Source: Candidatus Zixiibacteriota bacterium (GTDB taxonomy: Bacteria > Zixibacteria > MSB-5A5 > GN15 > JAAZOE01). From it: a stretch of DNA of 33,182 nt. The translations under genes and the position numbers were made by a program. The DNA lies in the NCBI GenBank assembly GCA_043819555.1, contig JBDREQ010000071.1, forward strand, positions 1 to 33,182. Direction: 5' to 3'. Below the pieces are notes generated by a model. The model worked only from the letters and a program-made list of their open reading frames with translations, was not told the origin of the DNA and ran no database searches. Positions 399-33,182 of this stretch are shown one piece after another. Each line of letters begins with the position of its first letter. Within the stretch, counting starts at the first letter, position 1.

Positions 399-728
399 TC
401 ACGCTGCAGTTCTAAAATAGTCTACTATTGCCAGAGCTTCGTCCATGGTAATGTCTTTGCGTCGCCGTTGTTCATCAGTCAAATTATCAAAGTCAGTATC
501 CGGATCCCATTTGGTTACATAAATAACATTGCTGCCGATTTTATCGATAGAAGATTCGGTATATTTTATAAACCCCTCCATAATGGTATTGACAATAATA
601 ACAGCTCCGATTCCAATCATGACTCCGAGAATGGTCATTCCTGAACGAAATTTGTTCGATCGCAGAGCATCAAATGCCAAATGAATGCCTTCCTGTACTT
701 CCGCTGGTAATTTCCAAATCTTACTCAT
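399..728 (-). pseudogene. Truncated MacB/FtsX-type ABC permease (N-terminal ~100 aa only)
   Basis: ALRSNKFRSGMTILGVMIGIGAVI parallels ALRANRLRSALTVLGMIMGVTSVI of the adjacent 408-aa permease, but the ORF stops at 109 aa with only ~90 bp before the terminator. Confidence 0.8.
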
Positions 729-1947
729 GGGTCAAAGCCTTTATTGGATCCAGCCGCGCCGCTTTTCGAGCCGGATATATTCCAAAAAATAGTCCCACTC
801 CGGTCGAAATGCCAAATCCCAAGACAATTGCCATAGTCGTTGGAGTAATAAATACATCCATCCAGTTGACCAGCATATATTGCCCCGTCTTAATTCCGAG
901 GAAGACGCCGATAAGTCCCCCGACCAGTGATAACATGACGGCCTCATAAAGGAATTGGATTAGAATATTATTTCGGCTGGCTCCCAGGGATTTCCGAATG
1001 CCAATCTCTCGCGTTCGCTCGGTCACCGAGACCATCATGATATTCATAATAACAATGCCGCCAATGACAATTGACAGGAGGGGCAGCGAGAGCATTATAA
1101 CTCGAGAAGCCCGGGTGATATCGTTGATGAAGGTCAATAAAGAAGTTGGCGAGTATATCTCAAAATCGTCAGCGTCGGCGAAGGGAACATGTCTGATGGC
1201 TCTAAGCGCCGACCGAACCTGTTCCATCGCCACATCTCGTTTCTCCAGCGTGGCGGCGCTTATCATCAGGCGTACCGGGTTACCCGGCTGTTTATATATT
1301 TTTTGATGGGTTGAAAGGGGAATAACGATTTCTTCATCCATACCCTGGACTATTTCCGAATCGAGTTTTTCCATCACGCCAATGACAAGAAATTCCTCAT
1401 TGCCGATTTTGAGCTTTTTCCCGATGGGATCGTTTTCTTCAAACAGCTTGGTGTATATCTTATATCCTATGACAGTAACGAGTCTTTTTCGATATTCATC
1501 TTCCCAGCTGATATAACGGCCTTTCAGGATATCATTGGAACGCATGGCCAGAACATTTGGAGTTTCGCCTCTGATTTCGAGCGATCTCATGGTCCGTGTT
1601 CCGTATTTGGCGTTTTGATAGGCAAAAGCTTCGGCTCCCACGTCATCGCAGTCCGGGCAAGATTCTTTAACCGGAACAATCAGACCCCGAGTGATTTTTT
1701 TTCGTTTGAGCATTTTTGCATAATCGGACCAGTTGTAATTAAAGCCGAATCGACTGACCACGAATGCTCGCGGGCCCATTGATTCGAAAGTATCCTCGAT
1801 TTGTGCCTGCCAGCCCTCCACCAAGGACACAACCGCGATTACCGAAGTCACTCCCATAATCATTCCCAGAACCGTCAATGCGGAGCGGAGACGATTGGCC
1901 CGCAATGCGGAAATGGCTTCTCCAATAATTGAAATTAAAACCCTCAT
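721..1947 (-). CDS. MacB-like ABC transporter permease (periplasmic core + FtsX domain)
   Basis: RSALTVLG TM1; GGIVIMNIMMVSVTERTREIGIRKSLGA; FFGIYPARKAARLDPIKAL. Confidence 0.93.
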   Translation of the reverse strand: MRVLISIIGEAISALRANRLRSALTVLGMIMGVTSVIAVVSLVEGWQAQIEDTFESMGPRAFVVSRFGFNYNWSDYAKMLKRKKITRGLIVPVKESCPDCDDVGAEAFAYQNAKYGTRTMRSLEIRGETPNVLAMRSNDILKGRYISWEDEYRKRLVTVIGYKIYTKLFEENDPIGKKLKIGNEEFLVIGVMEKLDSEIVQGMDEEIVIPLSTHQKIYKQPGNPVRLMISAATLEKRDVAMEQVRSALRAIRHVPFADADDFEIYSPTSLLTFINDITRASRVIMLSLPLLSIVIGGIVIMNIMMVSVTERTREIGIRKSLGASRNNILIQFLYEAVMLSLVGGLIGVFLGIKTGQYMLVNWMDVFITPTTMAIVLGFGISTGVGLFFGIYPARKAARLDPIKALTHE

Positions 1948-1962
1948 ATTGTCAGACTCTGC

Positions 1963-3297
1963 CTATAATTCACTTTCTTCTTTAATTCGCTCCAGCGAGG
2001 TTTCTTCGATTTTTACACTTTCCCCGTGCTTTAGTTTTCGGAGCGTTTGATACGAACCGGATACTATGGTATCTCCGGGAGTGACGCCGGATAATATGGC
2101 GATATGGCGGTCATCGGCAATCCCAGTCGCAGTTTCAACAAATTTGGTCAGGCCATTATTAATAATAAAAACGCCGGAACAGGTTATTTTATTTTTTCTC
2201 CCAATATCCGGTATGTAATTGGAGGGTTTTTCATCCAGTTTACTGGTCTGACGTCCCTCTGTATTTACTGAATCACGGTTGACTTCGAGAATCAGCCTAA
2301 GCGTATCAGGGTGAAATTCTCGCGTCACCACTGCAGCATATGGGATCAAAACAGCTTCGGATGCAAAATCGGTAGCAATGTCGACTGTGGCCGACATTCC
2401 TGGTTTGATATTTTCGATTGTATCATCAAAACGGACAATAACCTGAAAATTGGTAGAATAATCCTCGGTTCCTTCGCCGATTATCATCGCGCTATTGCCG
2501 ATCTCGACTACCGAACCCGCAAATGAGGTATCCCGAAAGGCGTCAATTCGTATTTCAGTTTTCTGTCCGACAGAAATTTTCCTGACCTCTGTTTCATCAA
2601 CGTTAACGTCCACTTCAAAAACTGATAAATCGGATATTGTCATTAGTCTCTTTCCTTGAGTATAAGATGTCTGGGCCTGTGCGATTTCTCCTTTTTCGGC
2701 GTTCAAATAGGTGACGACTCCTGACATTGGAGACATAATTACGGTATTGGCCAGATTATCCGCTTCTTTTTCAACTCTGGACCGGGCAATTCTTACCTGA
2801 GCCTGCATTGCATCATAATTTGCTTTTGAGTTTTCATATGCGAATGTTGCTTCGGAATAATCAGTTTCGGAGATTAGCTGCCGATTGAAAAGGCTGGACT
2901 GGCGTTCATAATTATTTTTATTTTTTTCATACAGAGCGCGAGCGGCCTCGGTACGGGCGGCCATTTCGTCATATGCGTATTGAGCCTGCATCAAATTGGC
3001 TCTTAATTGAATAGTGTCCAGCAAAATTAATCGGTCGCCTTTTGAAACCTGATCACCTTCATCGACAAAAAGATTGATGATCTCGGCTGACACTTCTGCC
3101 GTAATTTCAACTTTTGTCTGGGGTTGAATTCTGCCGGTCGCCGTCACAATTTCTGAAATATCATCAACATAGGCCAGGTTGGCCTGAACCAGAGTGCCCT
3201 CTTCGCCATTTGTCGTCGACCCGATAATTACTCCTATCACGACAATCAAAAGAGTGGCTAAGTATAAGTATCTTTTTGTTTTTTTTCGCATCGACAT
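1963..3297 (-). CDS. Efflux periplasmic adaptor / membrane fusion protein (MacA/HlyD family)
   Basis: N-terminal TM anchor; ATGRIQP; VDEGDQVSKGD lipoyl half; helical hairpin; SPMSGVV; KPGMSATVDI; RBS GAAGG upstream. Confidence 0.92.
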   Translation of the reverse strand: MSMRKKTKRYLYLATLLIVVIGVIIGSTTNGEEGTLVQANLAYVDDISEIVTATGRIQPQTKVEITAEVSAEIINLFVDEGDQVSKGDRLILLDTIQLRANLMQAQYAYDEMAARTEAARALYEKNKNNYERQSSLFNRQLISETDYSEATFAYENSKANYDAMQAQVRIARSRVEKEADNLANTVIMSPMSGVVTYLNAEKGEIAQAQTSYTQGKRLMTISDLSVFEVDVNVDETEVRKISVGQKTEIRIDAFRDTSFAGSVVEIGNSAMIIGEGTEDYSTNFQVIVRFDDTIENIKPGMSATVDIATDFASEAVLIPYAAVVTREFHPDTLRLILEVNRDSVNTEGRQTSKLDEKPSNYIPDIGRKNKITCSGVFIINNGLTKFVETATGIADDRHIAILSGVTPGDTIVSGSYQTLRKLKHGESVKIEETSLERIKEESEL

Positions 3298-4108: not shown

Positions 4109-7100
4109 ATGAAGCCAAAAGTTTTTATCGTAGTGTGTTTTGTAGCATGCTTAATGGCGGCTCCGATTTGGGCGGGTGTCACCGGTGCCATAACCGGCAC
4201 AGTTGTTGACTCCCAAACCAAAGAGCCGTTGCCAGGTGTTTCGGTAAGTATTGCCGGAACGACCATGGGGGCAAAATCCGATTTGGAAGGGCGTTTCATT
4301 GTTTTGAATGTCCCCGTCGGATCATACACACTTGTATTTAGTTCCGTTGGATATTCCCGAGTGGAAGTTTCCGACGTAAGAGTTTCGGCCGACTTGGCGA
4401 CTTTCCAGAATCGGGAGATGAACCAGGAAACTGCGGAAACCGGACGAGTGATTACCGTTACCGCGGAACGTCCTATGGTTATCAAGGACAGAACAACAAC
4501 GGTTAGTATCGTTGGCCGGGAAGAACTGCTTGCCATGCCGACCCGCGGATTTGATCAAATAGTCGGTCTGCAAAACAGTGTCGTCCGGATGAATTCAAAC
4601 GTTGATACACGCCAAAGAGGTGCTCGAGAGGCGTCATCGGGAACAGCTCCGGAGATAAACCTCCGCGGTGGCCGCCGCTCTGAAGTTGCTTATTATGTTG
4701 ATGGCTTTTCGCAGCAGGATCCGTTATCGGGTATCTCAACCGCGAATATCAATAATAATGCGATTAAGGAGGTTTCGGTAACTTCCGGCGCCTTTTCAGC
4801 CGAGTATGGCCATGTTGCTTCAGGTATCGTTAACGTCACCACAAATTCAGGTACCGAAGAATATCACGGAACTATCGAATTGGTCAGTGATAATATTGCT
4901 ACCCCATTCGGTTACGACAGCTATGACCAAAACTGGTATTCCGGAGATATTGGCGGTCCGATACCGGGATTAGAAAGAGCTTATTTCTTCTTTTCCGGCG
5001 AACGCCGCTTTTTACGCGATCGCGCCCCATCTATAAATACGGGGACGATATTTGAAGAATTCGGGCTTAGTAAATTGTATAATGAGCCGCAAAGGTTGCC
5101 CAGTAATTATCTTAGTGGTTGGTCCTACCAAGGTAAAATCGACATTGATGTAACTTCTAACCTAAAACTGACCTTAAATGGAAACGGCTCGATTGACAAA
5201 TGGCAAGAATATCGCCACAACTATAACAATCCCGATTTTCCGCAGCAGGTTCGGCATTCACCTCAATACGATGATCGGAACCAGGGATTAAATGCGAAAA
5301 TAACGCATACACTGAGTCCGCAGACGTTTTATAATCTGAGTGCATCATACTTCCGTACTGAACGGTATCGGATGGATGGCATTTTGTTTGATGATTATGC
5401 CGGCTATTTTCAAACCATTGATATATCGTTGTTAGACCACCTGGGCGATACTACGGTGACTTTTTCCGACTTGGAAATACCACATCCGGAATGGGATTTT
5501 TATAATCTTTTCCGTGAACCGGATTCCATCTATTACAGCGATTTGGTTAATTTTGATGGCGATACATTGTACCAGATCGATGATTCTCTGGATGCATTAA
5601 TAGGCGTGGTTGAAGGCCGATGGTTTAATCACCTGAAAAGAAAAGCCACTTATTGGCAGGCCAAAGGTGATATTACTCACCAGGCAGGATCATACCATAC
5701 CTTGAAATTTGGATTTGATTTCCAACGTCATACGCTGCGTTATTTTGAGAATTTAAACGCGAATCAAAGCCAGGATACGGCCGACGTCGAATCCCGGTTA
5801 AATCGTTACGGCTATGACATTAATGGTGTCGAGACGGATGCTGAAGACTTTAAGAACAGTACCAAGAATCCTATTAATATCGGCATCTATTTGCAGGATC
5901 GTTTTGATTGGCGGGGTTTTATTGTAAACGCCGGCGTCAGGTTTGACTATTTTGATTATAAAGCCTTACGCATTAAGGAAGTGACATCTCCATTCGATTA
6001 TACCGGTGGAACCGACCAGGAACTTGATCGGGAAGATCTTGAGAATTCTGAAAAGTTCACTCGAGTTTCTCCTCGACTTGGTATTTCATTTCCGGTCTCG
6101 GATAAAACTCAACTCTATATGAACTATGGCCAATTCTACCAGCGTCCCGATCTTTTAAGACTGTACCTTAGTTATGATTTTCTTGAATCGCGCATCGTCA
6201 GGGCTGGATCATTTTATCCTTTCCCAAGTCCGAATTTGAAGCCTGAAAAAACAATTGCTTATGAGTTTGGATTGACGAATCAACTGAGTGACAACGTCGT
6301 GTTCTCAGTCGCCGGCTATTATAAAGATGTTTCCGATTTGACGCAGGTATTCAAACAAAGTCCGGCCATACCCAGGTCTTACGATTTTTATGGTAACACC
6401 GACTATGGAACGATTAAGGGGTTTGATTTCGCATTGATGATGAGACGGACACAGAATATTAGCCTTAATTTGAAATATACTCTCAGTTATGCCACGGGCA
6501 CCGGTTCATTCGCAAACTCCACGAGCAATATTGCTTGGAAAAAAGACAAAGACTCATTCCCCAAGATGACTGCGCCTCTTGATTATGATCAAAGACACAG
6601 CATCATCGGAATCTTTGATTATCGTAATTCCAAGGGTGAAGGTCCTAAGTTGGGCGATACATACATCCTCGAAAACTTCGGAGTCAATGCAATAATCCAG
6701 GCTGCCAGTGGAACACCATATACGCCAATGGAAGTTTATGATCCGGTGACGAGCATCTCTGTTGATCAAAATCCAACAGGTTCGGCCAATTCGGCTAACC
6801 TTCCCTGGACCTATGTGATCGATATGAAAGCCGAGAAATCATTTATTTTTGGCGAATATCGTTTGGTGCCGTTTATCTGGGTAAAGAACCTTCTGAACAC
6901 TGAAAATATAACTAATATTTACGAAGGTACCGGCGAAGCAAACGTTACGGGATATCTGGAATCACCTGAAGGCATGGGGAAAGCCAGCAATGAAACCGTA
7001 ATTGATGAGGATACCGGCTTGACCCGAGGTGAGCAATATGCCCATCGGCATAATTTATTGCAAAATAATCCGAAAAACTATTCCAACCCTCGGATGATTA

Positions 7101-7126
7101 TGGTTGGATTGAGGATGTCATTCTAA
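4109..7126 (+). CDS. TonB-dependent receptor with N-terminal carboxypeptidase-regulatory-like domain
   Basis: ATG at 4109 after AGGAGG; signal peptide; GAITGTVVDSQTKEPLPGVSV; plug motifs RGGR.SEVAYYVDG and GAFSAEYGHVASGIVNVTT; PNLKPEKT; C-terminal PRMIMVGLRMSF ending in Phe. Confidence 0.93.
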   Translation: MKPKVFIVVCFVACLMAAPIWAGVTGAITGTVVDSQTKEPLPGVSVSIAGTTMGAKSDLEGRFIVLNVPVGSYTLVFSSVGYSRVEVSDVRVSADLATFQNREMNQETAETGRVITVTAERPMVIKDRTTTVSIVGREELLAMPTRGFDQIVGLQNSVVRMNSNVDTRQRGAREASSGTAPEINLRGGRRSEVAYYVDGFSQQDPLSGISTANINNNAIKEVSVTSGAFSAEYGHVASGIVNVTTNSGTEEYHGTIELVSDNIATPFGYDSYDQNWYSGDIGGPIPGLERAYFFFSGERRFLRDRAPSINTGTIFEEFGLSKLYNEPQRLPSNYLSGWSYQGKIDIDVTSNLKLTLNGNGSIDKWQEYRHNYNNPDFPQQVRHSPQYDDRNQGLNAKITHTLSPQTFYNLSASYFRTERYRMDGILFDDYAGYFQTIDISLLDHLGDTTVTFSDLEIPHPEWDFYNLFREPDSIYYSDLVNFDGDTLYQIDDSLDALIGVVEGRWFNHLKRKATYWQAKGDITHQAGSYHTLKFGFDFQRHTLRYFENLNANQSQDTADVESRLNRYGYDINGVETDAEDFKNSTKNPINIGIYLQDRFDWRGFIVNAGVRFDYFDYKALRIKEVTSPFDYTGGTDQELDREDLENSEKFTRVSPRLGISFPVSDKTQLYMNYGQFYQRPDLLRLYLSYDFLESRIVRAGSFYPFPSPNLKPEKTIAYEFGLTNQLSDNVVFSVAGYYKDVSDLTQVFKQSPAIPRSYDFYGNTDYGTIKGFDFALMMRRTQNISLNLKYTLSYATGTGSFANSTSNIAWKKDKDSFPKMTAPLDYDQRHSIIGIFDYRNSKGEGPKLGDTYILENFGVNAIIQAASGTPYTPMEVYDPVTSISVDQNPTGSANSANLPWTYVIDMKAEKSFIFGEYRLVPFIWVKNLLNTENITNIYEGTGEANVTGYLESPEGMGKASNETVIDEDTGLTRGEQYAHRHNLLQNNPKNYSNPRMIMVGLRMSF

Positions 7127-7145
7127 GAAAGATGAGGACACTACA

Positions 7146-10100
7146 ATGAAAATAAGATTTTTCATATGCTTTCTGCTGGTATTTCTTTTTGCTGTCCCGT
7201 TACAGGCGGCTCCTCCAAAAGGATATATCGGCGATAAAGCGCTCATTGTTGATAATACTACCTGGATCGACGCCAATCGAATACTAATGTTTGTTACCAA
7301 TCAATGTAACTTTGGGCGTGATTTAGGTGGTTATTTCGGCTATGACTACGGAACTTTTTATCCGTATATAGGCGATCCTGATTTAATCAGCGACGGCGTC
7401 GCTCAGGCGGTTGCGTCGCCATATTATGCTGGGGGTCTCTGGGTCGCTGGATTAGTTAACGGAGTGGTTCATGCCGCGGTATCGGAGTATTCGAGTGAAT
7501 ATGTCCCGGGACCGATGGCAGACAACACCTTTTCTAAGGACAAATCCTATTATCGGGTATTTAAGATATATCGAGATTCTATGGCTACCAATCCAAACGA
7601 GGATTATCTTGATTATGTTGAGTATGCCATTCCCGATGGCGCCCCTTATCAAAAGGATAGTCTGGGTGATCCGGTTCTTGACGGTGATGGCAATTATATC
7701 CCCGAATTGTTTGGTGACCAGATGTGCTGGTCAATTTGCAATGATGCCGACCCGGCGCAACACTCAGGTATCCAGGGCGGTGAGACCGAACCACTCGGTA
7801 TTCAAGTAAAACAGACGATTTTTGCATTTACTCGAGAAGGAACTTTAGGAGATATGGTTTTCCTGCGCCTTCGAATCTATAATAAAGGCGTAAATACAAT
7901 TAATAACTGCTATTTCTCGATTTGGTCCGATCCTGATATTGGCGGTTCAGCAGACGATTTGGTCGGGTGTGATACGCTCCTGGGCCTGGGATATTGTTAC
8001 CAGAGTCCCGGCGAAGCAGATTCCCGGTACGATGGATCATCAGCCCCCTGGCCGCCTGTAGTCGGAATTGACTTTTTCCAGGGTCCATTCCGGGCGGCAA
8101 CGGCCGAAGATATTGCTAACGCGGATCCCGCTGATACTACCGACGATGGTGAATTGATTCTGGGCAGAATGTGGGGGAAAACATATTCCGACTCCGTAAA
8201 TATCGGAATGGTATCATTCAATAAGTATATTAACGGCACCGACCCGGATAACGTTACCGAAACTTACCGTTATATGCGGGGCTTGAATAAAGATGGCACG
8301 CCTTATGTTTATAATGGGGGTACATTGCTCTACCAGGTATCGGGTGATCCGGTAAATGATCCTCAGGGCTTGGTTTCAGATGTGGATAACGCTTCGGCCG
8401 ACAGGCGCATGATGCAAACAACCGGTCCGGTTACATTTGTGCCGGGCGACTCAACCGAAATTTTGGCCGCTATGATTTTTGCCCGAGGCTCAGAGGATGT
8501 GAAACAGGCGATTACATTAGTTAAGGACCTTGATGCCTTTGCCCAGCAGCTATATGATGACGGGTTTAATCCTCCGCGTCCTCCAACGCCGCCAAATATC
8601 GATGTTCGTGTTCTTAAAGACCGTATTACACTGCTTTGGGATGATACATCACAGGTCAATCCTGGTGACTTTGAGTTTGAAGGTTATTCAGTATGGCAAA
8701 CTGCGGATCCCTCTTCCGGGAACTGGAAACTGTTGAAAACATGGGATATTATAAATGACCGCAATGTTGCACTTGTAGATTCCGTGCCCAATACGATTTT
8801 GAATGCTATTTTGCCGGTTATCAAGAGGCAAATTTCAAATAGCGGTTTGAATTATAGCTATACCACGAATATTAACCAGATTACCGGAGAAGCTATTCAC
8901 GCCCTTACTGAATATTATTTCCGGGTTACGGCTTTCTCATTTGCTTATGAATATGAGCGAGCTGGTGAGATAATTGTGGTTAACAATGGTGACCGGTTCC
9001 TGGAAAGTCAAACCTTTGTGAGTGTAATACCACAAGCAATTCCAACTGGAACACATATTACATATGACGCTAAGGATACGCTTATTGTCGAGCATACTGC
9101 CGGTATTTCAATGGGATCTGTTTCGGTAGAAGTTGTCGATCCCCTGGCGCTCACCGGGCATACCTACCAGGTCCTATTCAAGGATACGATAATGGAGGTC
9201 AATGGCATTCCTGCCACGACCGTATGGCATCTTTACGATGTCACCGCCGATACTTTCCTCCTGGAAAATCAGGTAAACCAGGGCCTTGCCGAAGATGAAT
9301 TCTGGGTAGTTGATGGAATTAAGGTAATGGTCAATGGCCCGCCCGTTGAAATTACTAACTTCCAAATGGTTGCTAATGGCGCTGGGGTGATTGATCCACC
9401 GGAAGCGGCAGCTGCCGACTTTGGTGGTTTTCCAACAGGTGTGGATGCCGATGGAGTTCCATTACGTCCTGGTGATGGCCAGCAGGTTGGCGAAGGTCAT
9501 TGGTTCTTCCATACCGCTGATAACGGCGGAACAAGTGGCGGCGGGACGCGAGGCAGTTTCGATGCCTTTATGTCTCGTGCAACGCGCGATGGAGGTAACC
9601 TGGCTTACATTGGCTTTACCGATTATGAAATGCGTTTTACCGGTGATAATGGCACTCCCGGTGTGGGGGGCTCATACGCCATTGAAGCCTTCAATGATGA
9701 TAACGTATTCTGGGTGCCTTTTGAATTATGGCGTACCGGAATCGGAACTCCGGATGATCCCAGCGATGATGTCAGGCTGATTCCGCTTATCATCGATGAT
9801 GCCAATGTCGATTATTCGGGAGATGACATTTATGCCCTTGAAAGCTGGGGAGCAGACGGTACCACCTGTAGCGGAGATTGTGAACATTCGGTGTCAGGCG
9901 GCAATGATGATCCGTTCACCGACTGGGTTTATTGGTATACGCCTGCTGACATGAGTCCTGGGGAAGCCGGTTATATGGCTCATGAAACTCTATTGCTGGA
10001 CGCTGATCCAGGCAATGATTATGATGTTGTAATGGATGAAGTTTTTGCTCGGACAGTTCTGGTTAACTGGAACGGTGGAGAAGAACCGCCCTTTAACCAG

Positions 10101-10532
10101 GATGTTCCTGAGCAGGGTTCTGTTATACGCATTGTAACTTCGAAAGGTCACAGCCCCAGTGATATCTGGGAGTTTTCAACTGAGGCTCCAACTTTAACTT
10201 CGACAGAAGGTGATCTTGATGAGATTACGCCCGTTCCAAATCCGTTTTATCTCTTTGGCGGTTATGATCCATCGCCGGGCAGTAAGCGGATTGCGTTCCA
10301 TAATCTGCCTGATGTCTGCACGATTAAGATTTTCAATCTTGCGGGCGATTTGGTAAGAACGCTTGATAAGGAAGCGGACGGTACCAACTATACTTATTGG
10401 AATTTGCTTACGGATAATAGGCTACCGATTGCCTCCGGCATTTATATTTATGTTGTGGAAGCCAAAGAATTTGGTACTAAGATCGGTAAGATGGCTGTCT
10501 TTGTTGAAGCAGAAGTACTAACTATATATTAA
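7146..10532 (+). CDS. Large acidic secreted/surface protein with FN3-like segment and T9SS/FlgD-like C-terminal domain
   Basis: Signal peptide; PPRPPTPP linker then ITLLWDD...DFEFEGYSVW...EYYFRVTAF (FN3-like); C-terminus VPNPF...FHNLPDVCTIKIFNLAGDLVRTL...WNLLTDNRLPIASGIYIYVV...GKMAVF. Confidence 0.82.
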   Translation: MKIRFFICFLLVFLFAVPLQAAPPKGYIGDKALIVDNTTWIDANRILMFVTNQCNFGRDLGGYFGYDYGTFYPYIGDPDLISDGVAQAVASPYYAGGLWVAGLVNGVVHAAVSEYSSEYVPGPMADNTFSKDKSYYRVFKIYRDSMATNPNEDYLDYVEYAIPDGAPYQKDSLGDPVLDGDGNYIPELFGDQMCWSICNDADPAQHSGIQGGETEPLGIQVKQTIFAFTREGTLGDMVFLRLRIYNKGVNTINNCYFSIWSDPDIGGSADDLVGCDTLLGLGYCYQSPGEADSRYDGSSAPWPPVVGIDFFQGPFRAATAEDIANADPADTTDDGELILGRMWGKTYSDSVNIGMVSFNKYINGTDPDNVTETYRYMRGLNKDGTPYVYNGGTLLYQVSGDPVNDPQGLVSDVDNASADRRMMQTTGPVTFVPGDSTEILAAMIFARGSEDVKQAITLVKDLDAFAQQLYDDGFNPPRPPTPPNIDVRVLKDRITLLWDDTSQVNPGDFEFEGYSVWQTADPSSGNWKLLKTWDIINDRNVALVDSVPNTILNAILPVIKRQISNSGLNYSYTTNINQITGEAIHALTEYYFRVTAFSFAYEYERAGEIIVVNNGDRFLESQTFVSVIPQAIPTGTHITYDAKDTLIVEHTAGISMGSVSVEVVDPLALTGHTYQVLFKDTIMEVNGIPATTVWHLYDVTADTFLLENQVNQGLAEDEFWVVDGIKVMVNGPPVEITNFQMVANGAGVIDPPEAAAADFGGFPTGVDADGVPLRPGDGQQVGEGHWFFHTADNGGTSGGGTRGSFDAFMSRATRDGGNLAYIGFTDYEMRFTGDNGTPGVGGSYAIEAFNDDNVFWVPFELWRTGIGTPDDPSDDVRLIPLIIDDANVDYSGDDIYALESWGADGTTCSGDCEHSVSGGNDDPFTDWVYWYTPADMSPGEAGYMAHETLLLDADPGNDYDVVMDEVFARTVLVNWNGGEEPPFNQDVPEQGSVIRIVTSKGHSPSDIWEFSTEAPTLTSTEGDLDEITPVPNPFYLFGGYDPSPGSKRIAFHNLPDVCTIKIFNLAGDLVRTLDKEADGTNYTYWNLLTDNRLPIASGIYIYVVEAKEFGTKIGKMAVFVEAEVLTIY

Positions 10533-10550
10533 ACAAGGAGATTGTAGCAA

Positions 10551-11537
10551 ATGAAATATAAACTGTTCATATTAACCATGGTTCTCCTTGTTGTGAGCCT
10601 TAACCTGGCTTACGCGGGGAACAACCTGCGTTTAGGTACTGCAGGCGCTCAGGAGTTGCGGATTCCCGTCGGCTCTCGCGGAGTGGCCATGGGAGGAGCG
10701 GTGATTGCTGATGCGCGCGGGGTTGAGTCGGTCTTCTGGAATCCAGCCGGACTGGCGAATACTCCGGGGACGCAAGTGATGTTTATGCATCACCCCTATA
10801 TCGCGGATATTAATGTCAATTTCGTGGGTGTGGCAACCCGCATTGAAGATTTTGGCACAATCGCGGCGGCGGCAAAAATCGTATCAATAGGAGATATAAA
10901 GGAAACGACCGAAGATGCTCCATTCGGAACCGGTCGATTCTTCTCTCCTTCGCTATCGGTAATGTCGTTGTCATATTCTCGTTTATTGACCGGTCAGGTG
11001 GCTTTTGGCGCCAATGCTTTGTTCATCAGCGAGAAAATTGCCGATATGTCTGCCAGCGGCATGGCCTTTGATATTGGTATTATGTTTGATCCCAATTGGA
11101 ATGGCTTGACGATGGGCATGGTCATCAAGAACTATGGTCCGCAAATGAGCTTCTCGGGACATAAAATCAATATTGGCGATCGCCCCGGAGAGCCGACCAG
11201 CTCTAAGTTCGAACTTCCCAGTACGGTGGATTTTGGAATGTCATTAAAAGTGCTGGAGCAGGATCGAAATATAGCCAAACTAAACGGTAATTTCCGTTCA
11301 AATAACTTTGGCAATGATCAATTTCTTGGAGGCGCTGAATATGTCTTTGATGAGAAATATTCTCTGCGCGCCGGATATAGCTATTCCGATCAGGCCGATT
11401 ATTTATTTGGTTTCTCGGCCGGTGGGGGACTAACGTTCGATTTGGGCGAAACGGCTATGAGCTTTGAATTTGCTTGGGCTGAGACTGGTGATATTTTTGA
11501 TGCCAATCAATATTTCACTTTCACGCTCCAATTCTAA
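10551..11537 (+). CDS. PorV/PorQ-family outer-membrane beta-barrel (FadL-like)
   Basis: GAQELRIPVGSRGVAMGGA...SVFWNPAGLA signature; amphipathic beta strands; terminal Phe; RBS AGGAG. Confidence 0.88.
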   Translation: MKYKLFILTMVLLVVSLNLAYAGNNLRLGTAGAQELRIPVGSRGVAMGGAVIADARGVESVFWNPAGLANTPGTQVMFMHHPYIADINVNFVGVATRIEDFGTIAAAAKIVSIGDIKETTEDAPFGTGRFFSPSLSVMSLSYSRLLTGQVAFGANALFISEKIADMSASGMAFDIGIMFDPNWNGLTMGMVIKNYGPQMSFSGHKINIGDRPGEPTSSKFELPSTVDFGMSLKVLEQDRNIAKLNGNFRSNNFGNDQFLGGAEYVFDEKYSLRAGYSYSDQADYLFGFSAGGGLTFDLGETAMSFEFAWAETGDIFDANQYFTFTLQF

Positions 11538-11557
11538 ACGATTTAGGATTTGAATTG

Positions 11558-11590
11558 AAGCCGGGTATCATAACGATATCCGGCTTTTTT
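11558..11590 (+). terminator. Intrinsic terminator of the receptor/cargo/PorV operon
   Basis: AAGCCGGGTATC-ataac-GATATCCGGCTTTTTT. Confidence 0.85.
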
Positions 11591-11607
11591 ATATCCATAT
11601 TTTAATG

Positions 11608-11757
11608 AAAAAATTAACCCGGCCGAACCAATCGACCGGGTTAACTCACACTTTTGCCGTACTCAACAAAAGTAACAGCCCCAGGCTCCCCTTAGCGTTA
11701 GCCCTGTGTGTTCCCTGGGTAAATAAAACTATGCCCTTGCTCGCCCAACAGAGCGAT
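11608..11757 (-). ncRNA. Candidate orphan small RNA (~150 nt)
   Basis: Minus-strand TTGCGT-N17-TATTAT promoter (11791-11763), several internal helices, a strong terminator (11644-11608), and no ORF with an RBS. Confidence 0.5.
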
Positions 11758-26768: not shown

Positions 26769-27806
26769 CTAATTAGGGGGATTTTGATTTATTTTCTTGG
26801 TGACGCCTGCATCATCGTTAAACACATTTAATGCGGGAGGAGCCGAACAAACGCCGGAATTACATAAATATCCCGGAGGACATTGATAACCACACATCCC
26901 ACAGTTATTTTCATCAGAATTTGTATTGACACATTGCCCGGCACAATTGGTCAATCCTGTTTGGCAATTCAAAACACAATTACCATTTTGGCATATATAC
27001 CCCGGAGGACATGAGTTACCGCAATTACCGCAGTTATCTTCATCATCCACAAGATCCACGCACTGGCCGCCGCAATTAACCATACCAGTAGGGCAATTCA
27101 ATTCACAGTTACCACTGACGCAGATATAGCCCGGAGGACATGAGCTGCCGCAAGAGCCACAGTTATCCTCATCGTTAAGAATATCAACGCATTGACCGCC
27201 GCAATTAACCATACCAGTAGAGCAATTCAAAACGCATGCTCCGTTTTGACAAATATATCCCGGAGGACATTGTTGGCCGCACAAACCGCAATTATTTTCA
27301 TCAGATGCCAGATCCACGCACTGGCCGCCGCAATTAACCATACCAGTAGGGCAATTCAATTCACAGTTACCACTGACGCAGATATAGCCCGGAGGACATG
27401 GGCTGCCGCAAGAGCCACAGTTGTCCTCATCGTTAAGAATATCCACGCATTGGCCGCCGCAATTAACCATTCCCGCGGGGCAATTCAAAACGCATTGGCC
27501 GTTACTGCAAATCTGTCCCGGAGGGCATTGGTGACCGCAGGAACCGCAGTTGTAAATATCGTTTGCCAGATTGACACAGATTCCCGCACAATCAATGTAT
27601 CCCATAGGGCAGGCGTTACAGTTTGGGCTGGGGTCGGGACCGCCCTTAAATACAAGGTTGATTAGATATACGGCATCACCGATATTGGTGTCGCCGTCGC
27701 CGTTGGCGTCACCGCAAGTGGTATCGCCAAGCACGCAGACCGGAACACACAAAACCCAAAATACGATTAATAGAAAATAATTTCTTGGATGTAAATACTT
27801 AGTCAT
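26769..27806 (-). CDS. Secreted protein: dockerin-like motif plus six 43-aa Cys-rich (Stig1/myxobacterial-type) repeats
   Basis: ATG 27806 after GGAGG; signal peptide; CGDANGDGDTNIGDAVYLINLVFKGGP; six units of C..G...C.G.CV....D..NCG.CG..CPPG..C..G.C. Confidence 0.88.
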   Translation of the reverse strand: MTKYLHPRNYFLLIVFWVLCVPVCVLGDTTCGDANGDGDTNIGDAVYLINLVFKGGPDPSPNCNACPMGYIDCAGICVNLANDIYNCGSCGHQCPPGQICSNGQCVLNCPAGMVNCGGQCVDILNDEDNCGSCGSPCPPGYICVSGNCELNCPTGMVNCGGQCVDLASDENNCGLCGQQCPPGYICQNGACVLNCSTGMVNCGGQCVDILNDEDNCGSCGSSCPPGYICVSGNCELNCPTGMVNCGGQCVDLVDDEDNCGNCGNSCPPGYICQNGNCVLNCQTGLTNCAGQCVNTNSDENNCGMCGYQCPPGYLCNSGVCSAPPALNVFNDDAGVTKKINQNPPN

Positions 27807-28036
27807 GGCTTCCTCCAAAGTATGATTAGCATTTTTAGCCCCGCAATGAAAAAGTAATAAACAGGTGTATGAGGACAAGATAAGTCTTTATTACAATACG
27901 TCAAGGATTAATTATTGAGCGAAGACAAGAAACAACGTCACCATCAAATACATCAATTTATTTCTTTGATAATCCGGCAACATCATATATAATATTTCAT
28001 GTAAATATATGGGGGCGCAAATTTGGGGAGGATGCT

Positions 28037-29212
28037 TTGAGATATTTCTTTATTGTTTTCATATCATTTTTTATTTTGGCAGGATTCGGCCAAAATAAAA
28101 AAATTGCAAACATCAAAGAACAACCGGCGGGAAATAAACAAGAAAAAGCTGGGGAGACTCCATCTGCGGAATCGGAGGCAATCCCTGATTCGGCAGATTT
28201 TATCAATGTCGGAAAATACCCGGAACAAATTTATGAAGAGGTTCCTGAATTTCCAGAGAGAGGATTAAATGCTAACATAAATGCCAAAATTATTATTGAG
28301 GCATATATTGATGAAACTGGAAAGGTGTTGAAAGCCCACGCACTCAAATGCACATCACCGGGTTATGGATTTGAGGAAGCTTCTACGACGGCCGCATACA
28401 AATGTACATACAAACCTGCTCGGAAAAACGGCAAACCAATAGGTTGCTGGATCAGTTATGTTGTTCATTTTATTGGAGATCCCAATAAGCCGTCGGCAAC
28501 ATTGAATTTTGAGCATCTATCCAATATGCCTACTCATCAAAACGTGGTTCCTTCAACAAACTGGCCGCCTCCGCCGGATTCTATTCCAGTCGATGAGCTT
28601 CCACAACCATTCCAACTTGTTAAACCGGAATACCCACAATCGGCATCCCCGGATAAACCAGATGCCACGGTTACTCTGGCGGTATATATAAGTTCATTGG
28701 GACATGTAAAAAAAATCGAAATAATCACGTCCGATAATCCTTCTAATAGTTTTAGTGACAATGCATCGGAAGCTGCCAAGAAAACTCAATTTTCTCCAGC
28801 CAAAAGAAATGGAATAAAAATAGGCACTTGGGTGTATTATGATGTGATCTTCAATAAACTATCGGGAGTGAGTGTGGGGGAAATCAAGCAATTATTCTCC
28901 AATACAAAAGAGGAATTGACTGCCTCTAAAGATGGTATTATTTCTCCGGATGAATTTGTTGCAGTTGATGTAGTGCCCGAACAGATTTATGAGGAAATTC
29001 CCGAGTATCCATCAAAAGCATTGGAAAAGAAAATTACAGGATTTGTTATTGTTGAAGTTTTTGTAGACGAGAATGGAAACGTTAAAAAAGGACAGGTTAA
29101 ATCTTGTCAGCCTAAGAATTGGGGTTTTGAACAAGCAGCGACAAATTCGGCTTATAAATGCAAATATAAACCGGCGTTGCGCGATGGGAAACCGGTTGGC
29201 GTTTGGATTTAA
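28037..29212 (+). CDS. TonB-family protein with three TonB C-terminal domains (third cut short by TAA)
   Basis: Three units of P.[FY]P..[AG]......V....I/VD..G.V........F...A..AA....[YF].PA...G..[IV]G.W; N-terminal hydrophobic segment; TTG start after GGAGG. Confidence 0.85.
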   Translation: MRYFFIVFISFFILAGFGQNKKIANIKEQPAGNKQEKAGETPSAESEAIPDSADFINVGKYPEQIYEEVPEFPERGLNANINAKIIIEAYIDETGKVLKAHALKCTSPGYGFEEASTTAAYKCTYKPARKNGKPIGCWISYVVHFIGDPNKPSATLNFEHLSNMPTHQNVVPSTNWPPPPDSIPVDELPQPFQLVKPEYPQSASPDKPDATVTLAVYISSLGHVKKIEIITSDNPSNSFSDNASEAAKKTQFSPAKRNGIKIGTWVYYDVIFNKLSGVSVGEIKQLFSNTKEELTASKDGIISPDEFVAVDVVPEQIYEEIPEYPSKALEKKITGFVIVEVFVDENGNVKKGQVKSCQPKNWGFEQAATNSAYKCKYKPALRDGKPVGVWI

Positions 29213-31394: not shown

Positions 31395-31752
31395 GGGGGT
31401 GACCATGTTTCGACGGATCAGGTGGGGAATTGTCAGCGCGCCGAGATTGTCGGATACTCTCGTAAACTATCTGGCAACCTTTAATAATTGGCGAATATGA
31501 TTATGCCATGGCTGCCTAGTTAAATAGCGCAGCTCGTCTTACCGGAAGTTATGCCTTCTACGTCCGGCTAAGGCGTCGAAAAAGAAGGCTCGGCTTTGCA
31601 AAGTCCGGATGCAGGGCTTAAATTTTCGGACTGGTTTATGGTCTTAGCCTGCCGTTTGGCTTGGCTGTAAATAAGATTTAATAGAACGGACACGCGCGTA
31701 GAAGATGATTTGACGCCTTTTTCGGACGGGGGTTCGATTCCCCCCACCTCCA
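31395..31752 (+). ncRNA. ssrA: tmRNA; tag peptide (A)GEYDYAMAA
   Basis: GGGGGTG/CACCTCC-A acceptor stem with the G3.U alanine identity pair; TTCGAC 5' motif; GGAC-GGGGG-TTCGATT-CCCCC T arm; tag frame 31490-31519 ending AA-stop; CCA not encoded. Confidence 0.96.
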
Positions 31753-31940
31753 ATTTATGTAATTCATTACAACACAGTAAGTTAGGGAATACGAGAAGAG
31801 GGGTGGTTATCCAATTCCCCCATCCCTAGCAAAAATCTAGGCTATAACCTCAATAACTTAGAATAACTTAAAACCTCAGATGTCACGATTTTGTCACGGG
31901 ATTGGCCTAGTAATTTTCCATGAGTTCGGCTAAAAAAAGC

Positions 31941-32003
31941 TTGTGCCAGTTAATTTTTATCAGTATAATATGTCGGTAATAATTTATATTTACCGACATA
32001 TTA
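31941..32003 (+). promoter_or_regulatory. abiE promoter with 14-bp inverted-repeat operator
   Basis: TTGTGC-N17-TATAAT; TAATATGTCGGTAA-N10-TTACCGACATATTA (31966-32003) overlaps the -10 and start site. Confidence 0.8.
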
Positions 32004-32022
32004 GGATAATGCGGATATAATT

Positions 32023-32625
32023 ATGAAAATGGAAATTAGAAAAAAGATCATCCAGATTGTTAAGCAGCTTGGTATCGTTCGGCCAAGAGATATGGATGAA
32101 TATGGCATACATCGTAAGTATATCCATATGCTATATAATCAGGGTGTACTAAATCGAATTGGACGAAGCCTCTATACCCTTTCTGAGACAGAGCCGTCTG
32201 AAAATAGAAGTATCGCCGAAGCCTGTAAACGGATGCCATCAGGAGTAGTCTGCCTGCTCTCGGCTCTCAGGTTTCATGATCTGACAACTCAATCGCCTTA
32301 TGAGATCTGGATGGCTATTGACAATAAGGCTCGAAGCCCTAAAGAACTTGGTATTCCTATACGGATTGCGAGATTTTCCGGTAAAGTACTTACGTCCGGA
32401 ATCGAACAACATAATATTGAAGGCGTTACCATCCGCGTTTATAATCCGGCGAAAACAGTTGCCGATTGTTTTAAATTCAGAAACAAGATTGGACTAGATG
32501 TTGCTCTCGAAGCTCTACGCGACTGTCACCAGTCTCGAAAATGTACGATGGATGATCTTTGGAAATATGCTAAAATCTGCAGGGTTGCCAATATCATAAA
32601 ACCGTATCTCGAGTCACTGGTATGA
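32023..32625 (+). CDS. abiEi: Type IV TA antitoxin / transcriptional regulator, AbiEi family
   Basis: N-terminal wHTH (RIGRSLY); GVVCLLSALRFHDLT; YNPAKTVADCFKFRNKIGLDVALEAL. Confidence 0.9.
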   Translation: MKMEIRKKIIQIVKQLGIVRPRDMDEYGIHRKYIHMLYNQGVLNRIGRSLYTLSETEPSENRSIAEACKRMPSGVVCLLSALRFHDLTTQSPYEIWMAIDNKARSPKELGIPIRIARFSGKVLTSGIEQHNIEGVTIRVYNPAKTVADCFKFRNKIGLDVALEALRDCHQSRKCTMDDLWKYAKICRVANIIKPYLESLV

Positions 32626-33182
32626 GTAAAAAGAATTCTCATAATCTCGAGGTTTCGGTTCGTCAGCGCCTGCTAAATCTCAGCCGAGAACGTAATGAAG
32701 ATTTTAATCTAATTCTGACACGTTATGCGGTGGAAAGATTCCTATATCGGCTATCAAAATCTAAACATGTAGACAGATTTATTCTTAAAGGTGCGATGCT
32801 AACCACCATTTGGATAGGCGAAGTGCATCGTCCAACTCGTGATCTGGATTTGCTCGGTTTTGGCGATCCGGAAGCAGAAGTTCTCAAAACAATTATGGCA
32901 GAAATATGTCTGGGAGATGTCGAAAGAGATGGACTTGAATACGAAGCTGACAGTGTTGAGATAGGGGAGATTCGTGAAAATCAGGCATACCCCGGACAGC
33001 GAGTGAAGATAAAGGCGAAACTCGGTAATGCCAGGATAAGAATCCAAATTGATGTCGGTTTTGGTGATGCAGTAACACCAAAGGCAAAAATCATTACTTA
33101 TCCGGTATTGCTTGATTATCCGGCTCCGCGAATCCGAGCTTATCCCAAAGAGACCCAGATTGCGGAGAAATTACAATCAATG
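32622..33182 (+). CDS. abiEii: AbiEii/AbiGii nucleotidyltransferase toxin (3'-partial)
   Basis: Not in the ORF track. ATGA overlap with abiEi; reads SVRQRLLN...YAVERFLYRLS...FILKGAML...RPTRDLDLL...IDVGFGD...IAEKLQSM and runs off the window. Confidence 0.92.
   Translation, partial: MSKKNSHNLEVSVRQRLLNLSRERNEDFNLILTRYAVERFLYRLSKSKHVDRFILKGAMLTTIWIGEVHRPTRDLDLLGFGDPEAEVLKTIMAEICLGDVERDGLEYEADSVEIGEIRENQAYPGQRVKIKAKLGNARIRIQIDVGFGDAVTPKAKIITYPVLLDYPAPRIRAYPKETQIAEKLQSM

What the first reader, a model, noticed from the sequence alone, without database searches (positions are those of the whole stretch)
4109..11590. TonB-dependent receptor + CTD-bearing surface protein + dedicated PorV-like barrel: candidate SusD-independent capture/uptake system
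Seen: three co-oriented genes with 19- and 18-bp gaps and one shared terminator; no SusD-like lipoprotein and no T9SS core genes in the window. Known: in the Bacteroidota T9SS, PorV binds and shuttles cargo via type A C-terminal domains, and SusC-type receptors normally pair with SusD. Inference: here a private PorV paralog retains the 1128-aa cargo at the surface through its CTD, where it acts as lid, binding protein or enzyme for the co-encoded receptor. I know of no experimental description of this module, but could not search the literature.
Basis: partly seen in the sequence, partly recalled or inferred. Interest (0 to 1): 0.75.

Follow-up and report, generated by a model that had tools for sequence, protein, structure and literature searches.

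The report
Receptor, surface protein, dedicated anchor triad
Three neighbouring genes, kept together across several bacterial phyla, encode a nutrient-uptake channel, a large secreted protein and a dedicated membrane anchor for it, and probably form an undescribed way of capturing large nutrients at the cell surface.

Summary
The triad is real and conserved. A TonB-dependent transporter (4109-7126), a 1128-aa secreted protein and a PorV/PorQ-family barrel lie 19 and 18 bp apart, followed by a terminator. The organism is probably a Zixibacterium. In 80 genome loci, 44 of 48 relatives that carry this protein's C-terminal tail sit in the same triad. The other 4 are cut by contig ends. None of 18 stand-alone relatives (ordinary CTD, dockerin or other ends) has either partner adjacent, and 8 of 8 independent tree pairs agree. 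Cultured Rhodothermus marinus carries the triad, without the tail. The middle protein has a carbohydrate-enzyme-type beta-supersandwich with no catalytic barrel, a triad-specific FN3-like domain, a variable insert and a PorZ/PorU-like CTD. That CTD misses the type A and type B cut-offs, and the barrel is not a PorV orthologue. Best reading: a T9SS-exported protein stays on its own carrier barrel and feeds the transporter, doing the job of SusD and surface lipoproteins. Physical contact, substrate and SprA presence are untested. Ten literature searches found no description.

The parts
4109..7126 (+). TonB-dependent transporter, 1005 aa: signal peptide, CarboxypepD_reg-like N-terminal domain, TonB-box-like VITVTAE, plug, barrel ending in ...LRMSF. 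Not a SusC by the curated cut-off.
   Evidence: The TonB-box likeness is recalled, not from a call.
7146..10532 (+). 1128-aa secreted 'cargo' protein with a Sec-type signal peptide and no lipoprotein cysteine at the cleavage site
   Evidence: Sequence; AlphaFold2 model pLDDT 88.6
7227..8570 (+). Cargo residues 28-475: beta-supersandwich plus linker helix, like the N-terminal domains of GH15/GH65/GH94/GH116 and the GH174 fucanase fold. No (alpha/alpha)6 barrel follows. Many near-invariant Asp, Trp and Tyr residues.
   Evidence: (1lf6 Z 19.1, rmsd 2.7, 228 aligned; 9k1g Z 15.3, rmsd 3.8, 233 aligned)
8580..9035 (+). Cargo residues 479-630: FN3-like domain with long beta-hairpins, nearly confined to triad-type cargos
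   Evidence: 34 of 34 tailed representatives vs 1 of 52 with an ordinary CTD; also in the R. marinus cargo. The FN3 label is from the strand pattern and weak Foldseek and titin hits.
9063..10190 (+). Cargo residues 640-1015: FlgK-D2-like beta domain carrying an acidic insert (736-990) with no fold match; the insert is the most variable part
   Evidence: 4ut1 Z 8.7, rmsd 2.7, 86 aligned; 45 of 116 relatives under 20% identity in the insert
10215..10502 (+). Cargo CTD: T9SS-type Ig fold, PorZ/PorU-like, with invariant K1115
   Evidence: (PorZ 5m11 Z 11.8, rmsd 2.4, 93 aligned)
10503..10532 (+). Conserved 9-residue tail xExExLxx[FYL] past the last CTD strand; disordered in the monomer model
   Evidence: K/R exactly 14 from the end in 47 of 48
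10551..11537 (+). PorV/PorQ-family (FadL-like) outer-membrane barrel, 328 aa
   Evidence: NF033709 168.9 vs cut-off 90; family profile hits F. johnsoniae PorV 6h3i at E 9e-22
11557..11595 (+). Intrinsic-terminator-like hairpin and T-run closing the operon

Best explanation
A three-part surface capture and import unit. (1) The cargo crosses the inner membrane by Sec, then the outer membrane through the T9SS translocon SprA, using its CTD (inferred). (2) It is collected by the co-encoded PorV/PorQ-family barrel rather than the general PorV, and stays bound uncleaved, as PorZ does on PorQ and type B cargos do on PorP/SprF (inferred; about 0.85 that barrel and cargo are a cognate pair). The tail is a subfamily-specific signature, probably for carrier recognition or retention. 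(3) Held there, the cargo binds and perhaps clips a polymeric nutrient, most likely a glycan, with its supersandwich and variable insert, and hands it to the co-encoded TonB-dependent transporter for import (inferred; about 0.7 for functional coupling, 0.4 for a direct SusD-like contact, 0.45 for a glycan). It works like a Bacteroidota utilisome, with the surface partner held by a protein barrel instead of a lipid anchor. Shown here: gene order, its conservation, domain anatomy and family memberships. Not shown: any binding, location or substrate.
For: 44 of 48 tailed cargos in full triads, the other 4 cut by contig ends; 0 of 18 stand-alone relatives with either partner adjacent; 8 of 8 independent pairs concordant, sign test p 0.008. 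Trees of the three genes share 16-21 of 33 splits vs at most 3 in 500 shuffles. Median gaps 7 and 16 bp in 35 triads. Same triad in R. marinus. CTD closest to PorZ/PorU, whose CTDs are uncleaved, and an 8-His C-terminal extension does not block T9SS export (PMC11285876, passages). Dedicated carriers retain linked cargos (PMC9143113, PMC12635249, passages). The supersandwich recurs in stand-alone secreted proteins with ordinary CTDs or dockerins, so it acts outside the cell in its own right. Top fold matches are carbohydrate-active enzymes.
Against: The R. marinus triad cargo ends ...GKFAVIK with no tail, so the tail is not required for the triad. L030 has the transporter with a 491-aa cargo and no barrel within 7.6 kb. 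Tree congruence is expected from plain linkage and vertical descent. No recurring glycan-enzyme, regulator or tonB/exbBD gene was seen beside the triads (ORF calls there were crude). In most top fold matches the supersandwich is the non-catalytic N-terminal domain (established knowledge), and a shared fold shows no function. No SprA or PorKLMN gene was seen among the 35 flanking proteins scanned, and whole genomes could not be checked.
Confidence: 0.6

Rival explanations
1. The cargo is a surface enzyme of an unknown glycoside hydrolase or lyase family, anchored on its barrel but not touching the transporter, which simply imports the products (a minimal polysaccharide-utilisation locus).
For: Near-invariant D200, D262, D264, D270, D271, D276, D292, D414, D419, R421, W99, W260 in both triad and stand-alone versions. 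GH174 fucanases share the fold, and the key residues listed for Fun174A (D119, E120, E218; PMC11943901, passages) fall in the aligned range 65-377, if numbering agrees. The domain left the triad repeatedly (8 changes on the tree).
Against: A free enzyme would not need invariant order and tight gaps with one transporter family. The FN3-hairpin domain is almost confined to triad cargos. The acidic motifs could be calcium sites.
Confidence: 0.2
2. The transporter works in reverse, like Myxococcus Oar, exporting the cargo, which is then caught by the barrel: a self-contained, SprA-independent display system.
For: Oar secretes the 51-kDa PopC (PMC11658791, passages; PMC6434023, search listing only). 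3 of 120 transporter relatives carry PF25183, recalled as the Oar-like barrel family. No T9SS core gene was seen in the flanks scanned.
Against: The cargo is about 120 kDa and multi-domain. It keeps the T9SS CTD fold and lysine. Zixibacteria encode ordinary type A cargos (L013 neighbour, TIGR04183 48 vs cut-off 23). SprA is reported in all FCB phyla sampled except Chlorobiota (PMC12611786, passages; Zixibacteria were not among the organisms found in its supplement).
Confidence: 0.08
3. The barrel is a general carrier or a FadL-type small-molecule channel, and the three genes are only co-regulated.
For: Weak FadL/TodX hits; co-phylogeny follows from linkage alone.
Against: The barrel is next to the cargo in 47 of 48 tailed cases (the other is cut 249 bp downstream) and next to none of 18 stand-alone ones. 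It is far closer to PorV (E 9e-22) than to TodX (E 1e-4).
Confidence: 0.07

Closest known systems
Type B T9SS cargo with cognate PorP/SprF carrier (SprB-SprF, PG1035-PorP)
   Same: Cargo gene directly linked to a dedicated FadL-like barrel, which keeps the uncleaved cargo on the surface (PMC9143113, PMC12618676).
   Different: Here the barrel is PorV/PorQ family with no PorP/SprF family hit, the CTD is below the PF13585 cut-off, and a TonB-dependent transporter is a fixed third member.
T9SS attachment complex pairs PorZ-PorQ and PorU-PorV
   Same: Long, uncleaved, type-A-fold CTD kept on a PorV-family barrel; the best CTD matches are PorZ and PorU, and the best barrel equivalog is PorQ.
   Different: No beta-propellers or sortase domain; PorQ cut-off missed (99.8 vs 220); a 9-residue tail in this subfamily; linked to a transporter.
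SusC/SusD utilisome of Bacteroidota
   Same: A TonB-dependent transporter with a CarboxypepD-like N-terminal domain, co-encoded with a large surface partner that has carbohydrate-enzyme-like folds.
   Different: Not SusC by TIGR04056; no SusD; the partner is not a lipoprotein and is apparently anchored through a third protein.
Myxococcus Oar/PopC export
   Same: A large TonB-dependent transporter linked to a secreted protein; a trace of PF25183 in relatives.
   Different: No adjacent tonB/exbBD seen; the passenger bears a T9SS-type CTD and has its own carrier.
GH15/GH65/GH94/GH116 N-terminal supersandwich and GH174 fucanase
   Same: Fold of cargo residues 28-475 (Z 15-19).
   Different: 6-14% identity in the top matches; no (alpha/alpha)6 catalytic barrel; different conserved residues.

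Membership tests
TonB-dependent transporter | Plug plus beta-barrel domains | tested here: met
   PF07715 36.4 (cut-off 23.9), PF00593 91.3 (cut-off 27); strand count not modelled
TonB-dependent transporter | TonB box and TonB-dependent import | tested here: inconclusive
   VITVTAER-type strand conserved before the plug; likeness to TonB boxes is recalled; direction of transport not testable
SusC/RagA | TIGR04056 above cut-off | tested here: not met
   86.3 vs 368.25
SusC/RagA | Adjacent SusD lipoprotein gene | tested here: not met
   The downstream gene is the cargo in the window and in every evaluable triad
PorV/PorQ family | NF033709 above cut-off; kinship with solved PorV | tested here: met
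   168.9 vs 90; 6h3i E 9e-22
PorV or PorQ orthologue | NF033710 or NF033711 above cut-off | tested here: not met
   59.2 vs 250; 99.8 vs 220
PorP/SprF carriers | PorP/SprF family profile | tested here: not met
   No such family among the hits at E<=0.01
T9SS type A CTD | Ig-like CTD fold with conserved Lys in the last strand | tested here: met
   PorZ CTD Z 11.8, rmsd 2.4, 93 aligned; K1115 invariant in 117 sequences; Lys role from PMC10994853
T9SS type A CTD | PF18962/TIGR04183 above cut-off; Lys close to the C-terminus | tested here: not met
   No hit for the window protein; 3 of 46 relatives weak, none at cut-off; Lys is 14 from the end
T9SS type B CTD | PF13585 above cut-off | tested here: not met
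   8 of 46 relatives weak (at most 22 bits vs 27)
T9SS substrate | SprA and PorKLMN in the genome; export depends on them | not testable with these tools
   Only the window and 8-kb flanks were available; no SprA query came from any call
GH15/65/94/116 | Catalytic (alpha/alpha)6 barrel after the supersandwich | tested here: not met
   The confident model has an all-beta FN3-like domain after the linker helix
GH174 | Fold and catalytic residues | tested here: inconclusive
   Fold Z 14-15 at 8-10% identity; residue equivalence could not be read out
Oar-type exporter | PF25183 barrel, linked tonB/exbBD, export activity | tested here: inconclusive
   PF25183 on 3 of 120 relatives, not on the window protein; no linked exbBD seen

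The most novel reading that the evidence does not exclude
The three proteins form one stable complex in which a T9SS-secreted protein, locked onto a private barrel through a third class of retained CTD, arches over the TonB-dependent transporter as its lid and is itself a new carbohydrate-active family. That would be a lipoprotein-free counterpart of SusCD, joining the T9SS and TonB import in one machine across deep FCB phyla.
Probability: 0.35. Interest if true: 0.85.

Novelty: new variant of a known kind. Interest (0 to 1): 0.67.

Why it matters
SusCD utilisomes explain how Bacteroidota capture polymers, but how Zixibacteria, Eisenbacteria, Latescibacterota and related sediment and soil lineages do so is little studied. 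A fixed transporter-cargo-carrier cassette would give them a capture route built from T9SS parts, add a CTD class that fits neither type A nor type B, and tie type IX secretion directly to TonB-driven import. The cargo's first domain belongs to a family of about 5,000 clusters at 50% identity with no Pfam model. The copy in cultured R. marinus (RMAR_RS14120, RS14115, RS14110) makes the idea directly testable.

Tried and rejected
Complex prediction of transporter residues 158-1013 (1013-aa numbering) with cargo residues 485-628 gave 'no answer' (score 0.00 in two runs, partner fold uncertain). It is no evidence either way. The 1000-residue limit kept the cargo's first domain out, and the barrel-CTD pair was not folded. 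Mutual-information coevolution on 73, 44 and 36 paired rows gave clade-marker noise, with top z 8.4 vs 7.0 shuffled; 33 of the 73 pairs were matched only by equal contig length. A search for longer, fused forms of the barrel found none (weak evidence). No solved structure matched the cargo by sequence, and the insert 736-990 had no fold match. ESM Atlas gave only unnamed clusters at the top. No riboswitch or other Rfam family lies upstream. No conserved fourth gene was seen. The Fisher test printed used hand-entered counts and is not used. The tail as a universal triad signal is rejected by R. marinus. The taxa of ten distant cargo representatives could not be looked up. The metagenome and viral contig collections stayed unchecked.
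Full report
Observation. The three genes are as described: 4109-7126, 7146-10532 and 10551-11537 on the + strand, with gaps of 19 and 18 bp and a terminator-like hairpin at 11557-11587. Gene 1 is a TonB-dependent transporter but scores far below the SusC cut-off (86 vs 368). Gene 3 passes the PorV/PorQ family cut-off (169 vs 90) but neither the PorV (59 vs 250) nor the PorQ (100 vs 220) equivalog. Gene 2 matches nothing. Of the 15 cargo relatives that name a taxon, 14 say Zixibacteria, so the window is probably from that phylum.

Anatomy of the middle protein. The AlphaFold2 model is confident (pLDDT 88.6, pTM 0.78). Residues 28-475 form a beta-supersandwich plus linker helix like the N-terminal domains of GH15, GH65, GH94 and GH116 enzymes (best Z 19.1, rmsd 2.7, 228 aligned) and like GH174 fucanases (Z 15.3), but no catalytic barrel follows. 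Next come an FN3-like domain with long hairpins, a FlgK-D2-like domain (Z 8.7) carrying a 255-residue acidic insert with no fold match, and a CTD that superposes on PorZ's (Z 11.8, rmsd 2.4, 93 aligned). The insert is the variable part: 45 of 116 close relatives are under 20% identical there. By sequence the CTD is nearest PorU and PorZ (weak E-values), and 0 of 46 relatives reach the type A or type B Pfam cut-off. It keeps the T9SS lysine (K1115) and carries a 9-residue tail, xExExLxx[FYL], in 118 of the 120 best hits, the query included.

The first domain is a large family: 4,977 clusters at 50% identity with E<=0.001. Among 144 representatives it occurs in tailed proteins (34), in proteins with an ordinary CTD (52) and in others, including dockerin-ended proteins and fragments (58). 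The FN3-like domain is in 34 of 34, 1 of 52 and 13 of 58 of these; most of the 13 look like fragments of triad-type proteins, and two are true dockerin proteins.

Synteny. I scanned the genome collection with a motif from the first domain, which is neutral to architecture. 79 held a homologue, 80 genes in all. 48 were tailed: 44 had the transporter upstream and the barrel downstream, 3 had the barrel with the upstream side cut at the contig end, and 1 was cut on both sides. 18 complete genes with other ends had neither partner within 600 bp (14 had at least 300 bp on both sides; L015's lies about 700 bp upstream of a triad). 11 were truncated, 9 of them with the transporter upstream. L008 is a triad with a variant tail. 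L047 and L030 have the transporter and a short cargo; L030 has no barrel within 7.6 kb and is a real exception or a decayed locus. On a tree of the first domain (55 rows; truncated, frameshifted, edge-cut and the three odd loci left out), tail state changes 8 times and triad membership follows in 8 of 8 independent pairs (p 0.008). Record titles include Zixiibacteriota, Eisenbacteria, Latescibacterota and Calditrichaeota; several 'Ignavibacteria', 'Bacteroidota' and 'Saccharimonadaceae' titles nest inside those clades and may be mislabelled. For 35 complete triads (of 45 loci with both neighbours) plus the window, the three trees share 16, 21 and 18 of 33 splits against at most 3 in shuffles; linkage alone predicts this. 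Median gaps are 7 and 16 bp, and 21 of 33 have a hairpin plus T-run after the barrel, with no shuffle control.

A cultured example. In the plasmid collection the only cargo hit, and the best barrel and transporter hits, all fall on Rhodothermus marinus pRMAR01, in the same order: RMAR_RS14120, RS14115, RS14110. Its cargo has the same four domains but ends ...GKFAVIK with no tail. The triad is therefore wider than the tail, and my motif scan sampled only one subfamily.

Mechanism. In Bacteroidota, type A cargos leave SprA on the shared PorV, whereas type B cargos stay on dedicated, usually linked carriers (PMC12635249, PMC9143113, PMC10202324, passages; PMC12618676, abstract and passages). PorZ and PorU keep their longer CTDs, and an 8-His extension does not block export (PMC11285876, passages). 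The cargo and barrel here fit that retained-pair pattern (about 0.85). The fixed transporter, the triad-specific FN3 domain and the carbohydrate-enzyme-like fold suggest capture and hand-over of a polymer. I put the whole model at 0.6, direct lid contact at 0.4 and a glycan substrate at 0.45. Rivals: an anchored enzyme with no contact (0.2), Oar-like export (0.08), mere co-regulation (0.07). SprA could not be checked in this genome. Ordinary type A cargos occur in Zixibacteria. SprA is reported in all FCB phyla sampled except Chlorobiota (PMC12611786, passages); its distribution table is not held as text, one supplement file was unreadable, and Zixibacteria were not found in the others.

Novelty. 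Ten full-text searches (only the top 4 to 40 listings of each were seen) showed no paper describing this gene trio, and none of the 40 listed held 'T9SS' with these phyla. I also read passages of PMC10994853, PMC11658791, PMC11943901, PMC5317091 and PMC7409140; none describes it. The library lacks most subscription papers, and bioRxiv supplements were closed. Each part has a known counterpart, so I rate it a new variant of a known kind, with unusually clean genomic support and an open mechanism. Interest 0.67.

Noticed in passing
window 28037-29212 (+): Protein with three TonB C-terminal domains (PF03544); a possible energiser for the transporter, unlinked to the triad.
   Followed up: no
window 26769-27878 (-): Secreted protein with a dockerin-like N-terminal segment (by eye) followed by cysteine-rich MXAN_6577/STIG1-like repeats.
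   Followed up: no
window 31395-33182 (+): tmRNA followed by an AbiEi/AbiEii toxin-antitoxin pair; possibly the edge of an element integrated at the tmRNA.
   Followed up: no
window 399-3297 (-); L013 3-1824: MacAB-like efflux genes run divergently from the triad here and in the closest relative L013, but were not seen beside other triads.
   Followed up: partly
L035 1828-4683, L040 6008-8965; P0092, P0256: The cargo's first domain often ends in a dockerin instead of a CTD, and one relative has cohesins plus a CTD: a hint of cohesin-dockerin surface display in Zixibacteria.
   Followed up: partly
L120 6639-9165 and 16386-19118 (R. marinus pRMAR01): The triad is flanked by an amidase/peptidoglycan-recognition protein, a serine hydrolase and an FG-GAP protein with a CTD, hinting at peptidoglycan as a substrate there.
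   Followed up: no
L030 7601-11954: Transporter plus a cargo ending after the first domain, with no barrel within 7.6 kb.
   Followed up: partly
window 11611-11647: A second strong hairpin with a T-run on the - strand just past the operon's terminator.
   Followed up: no
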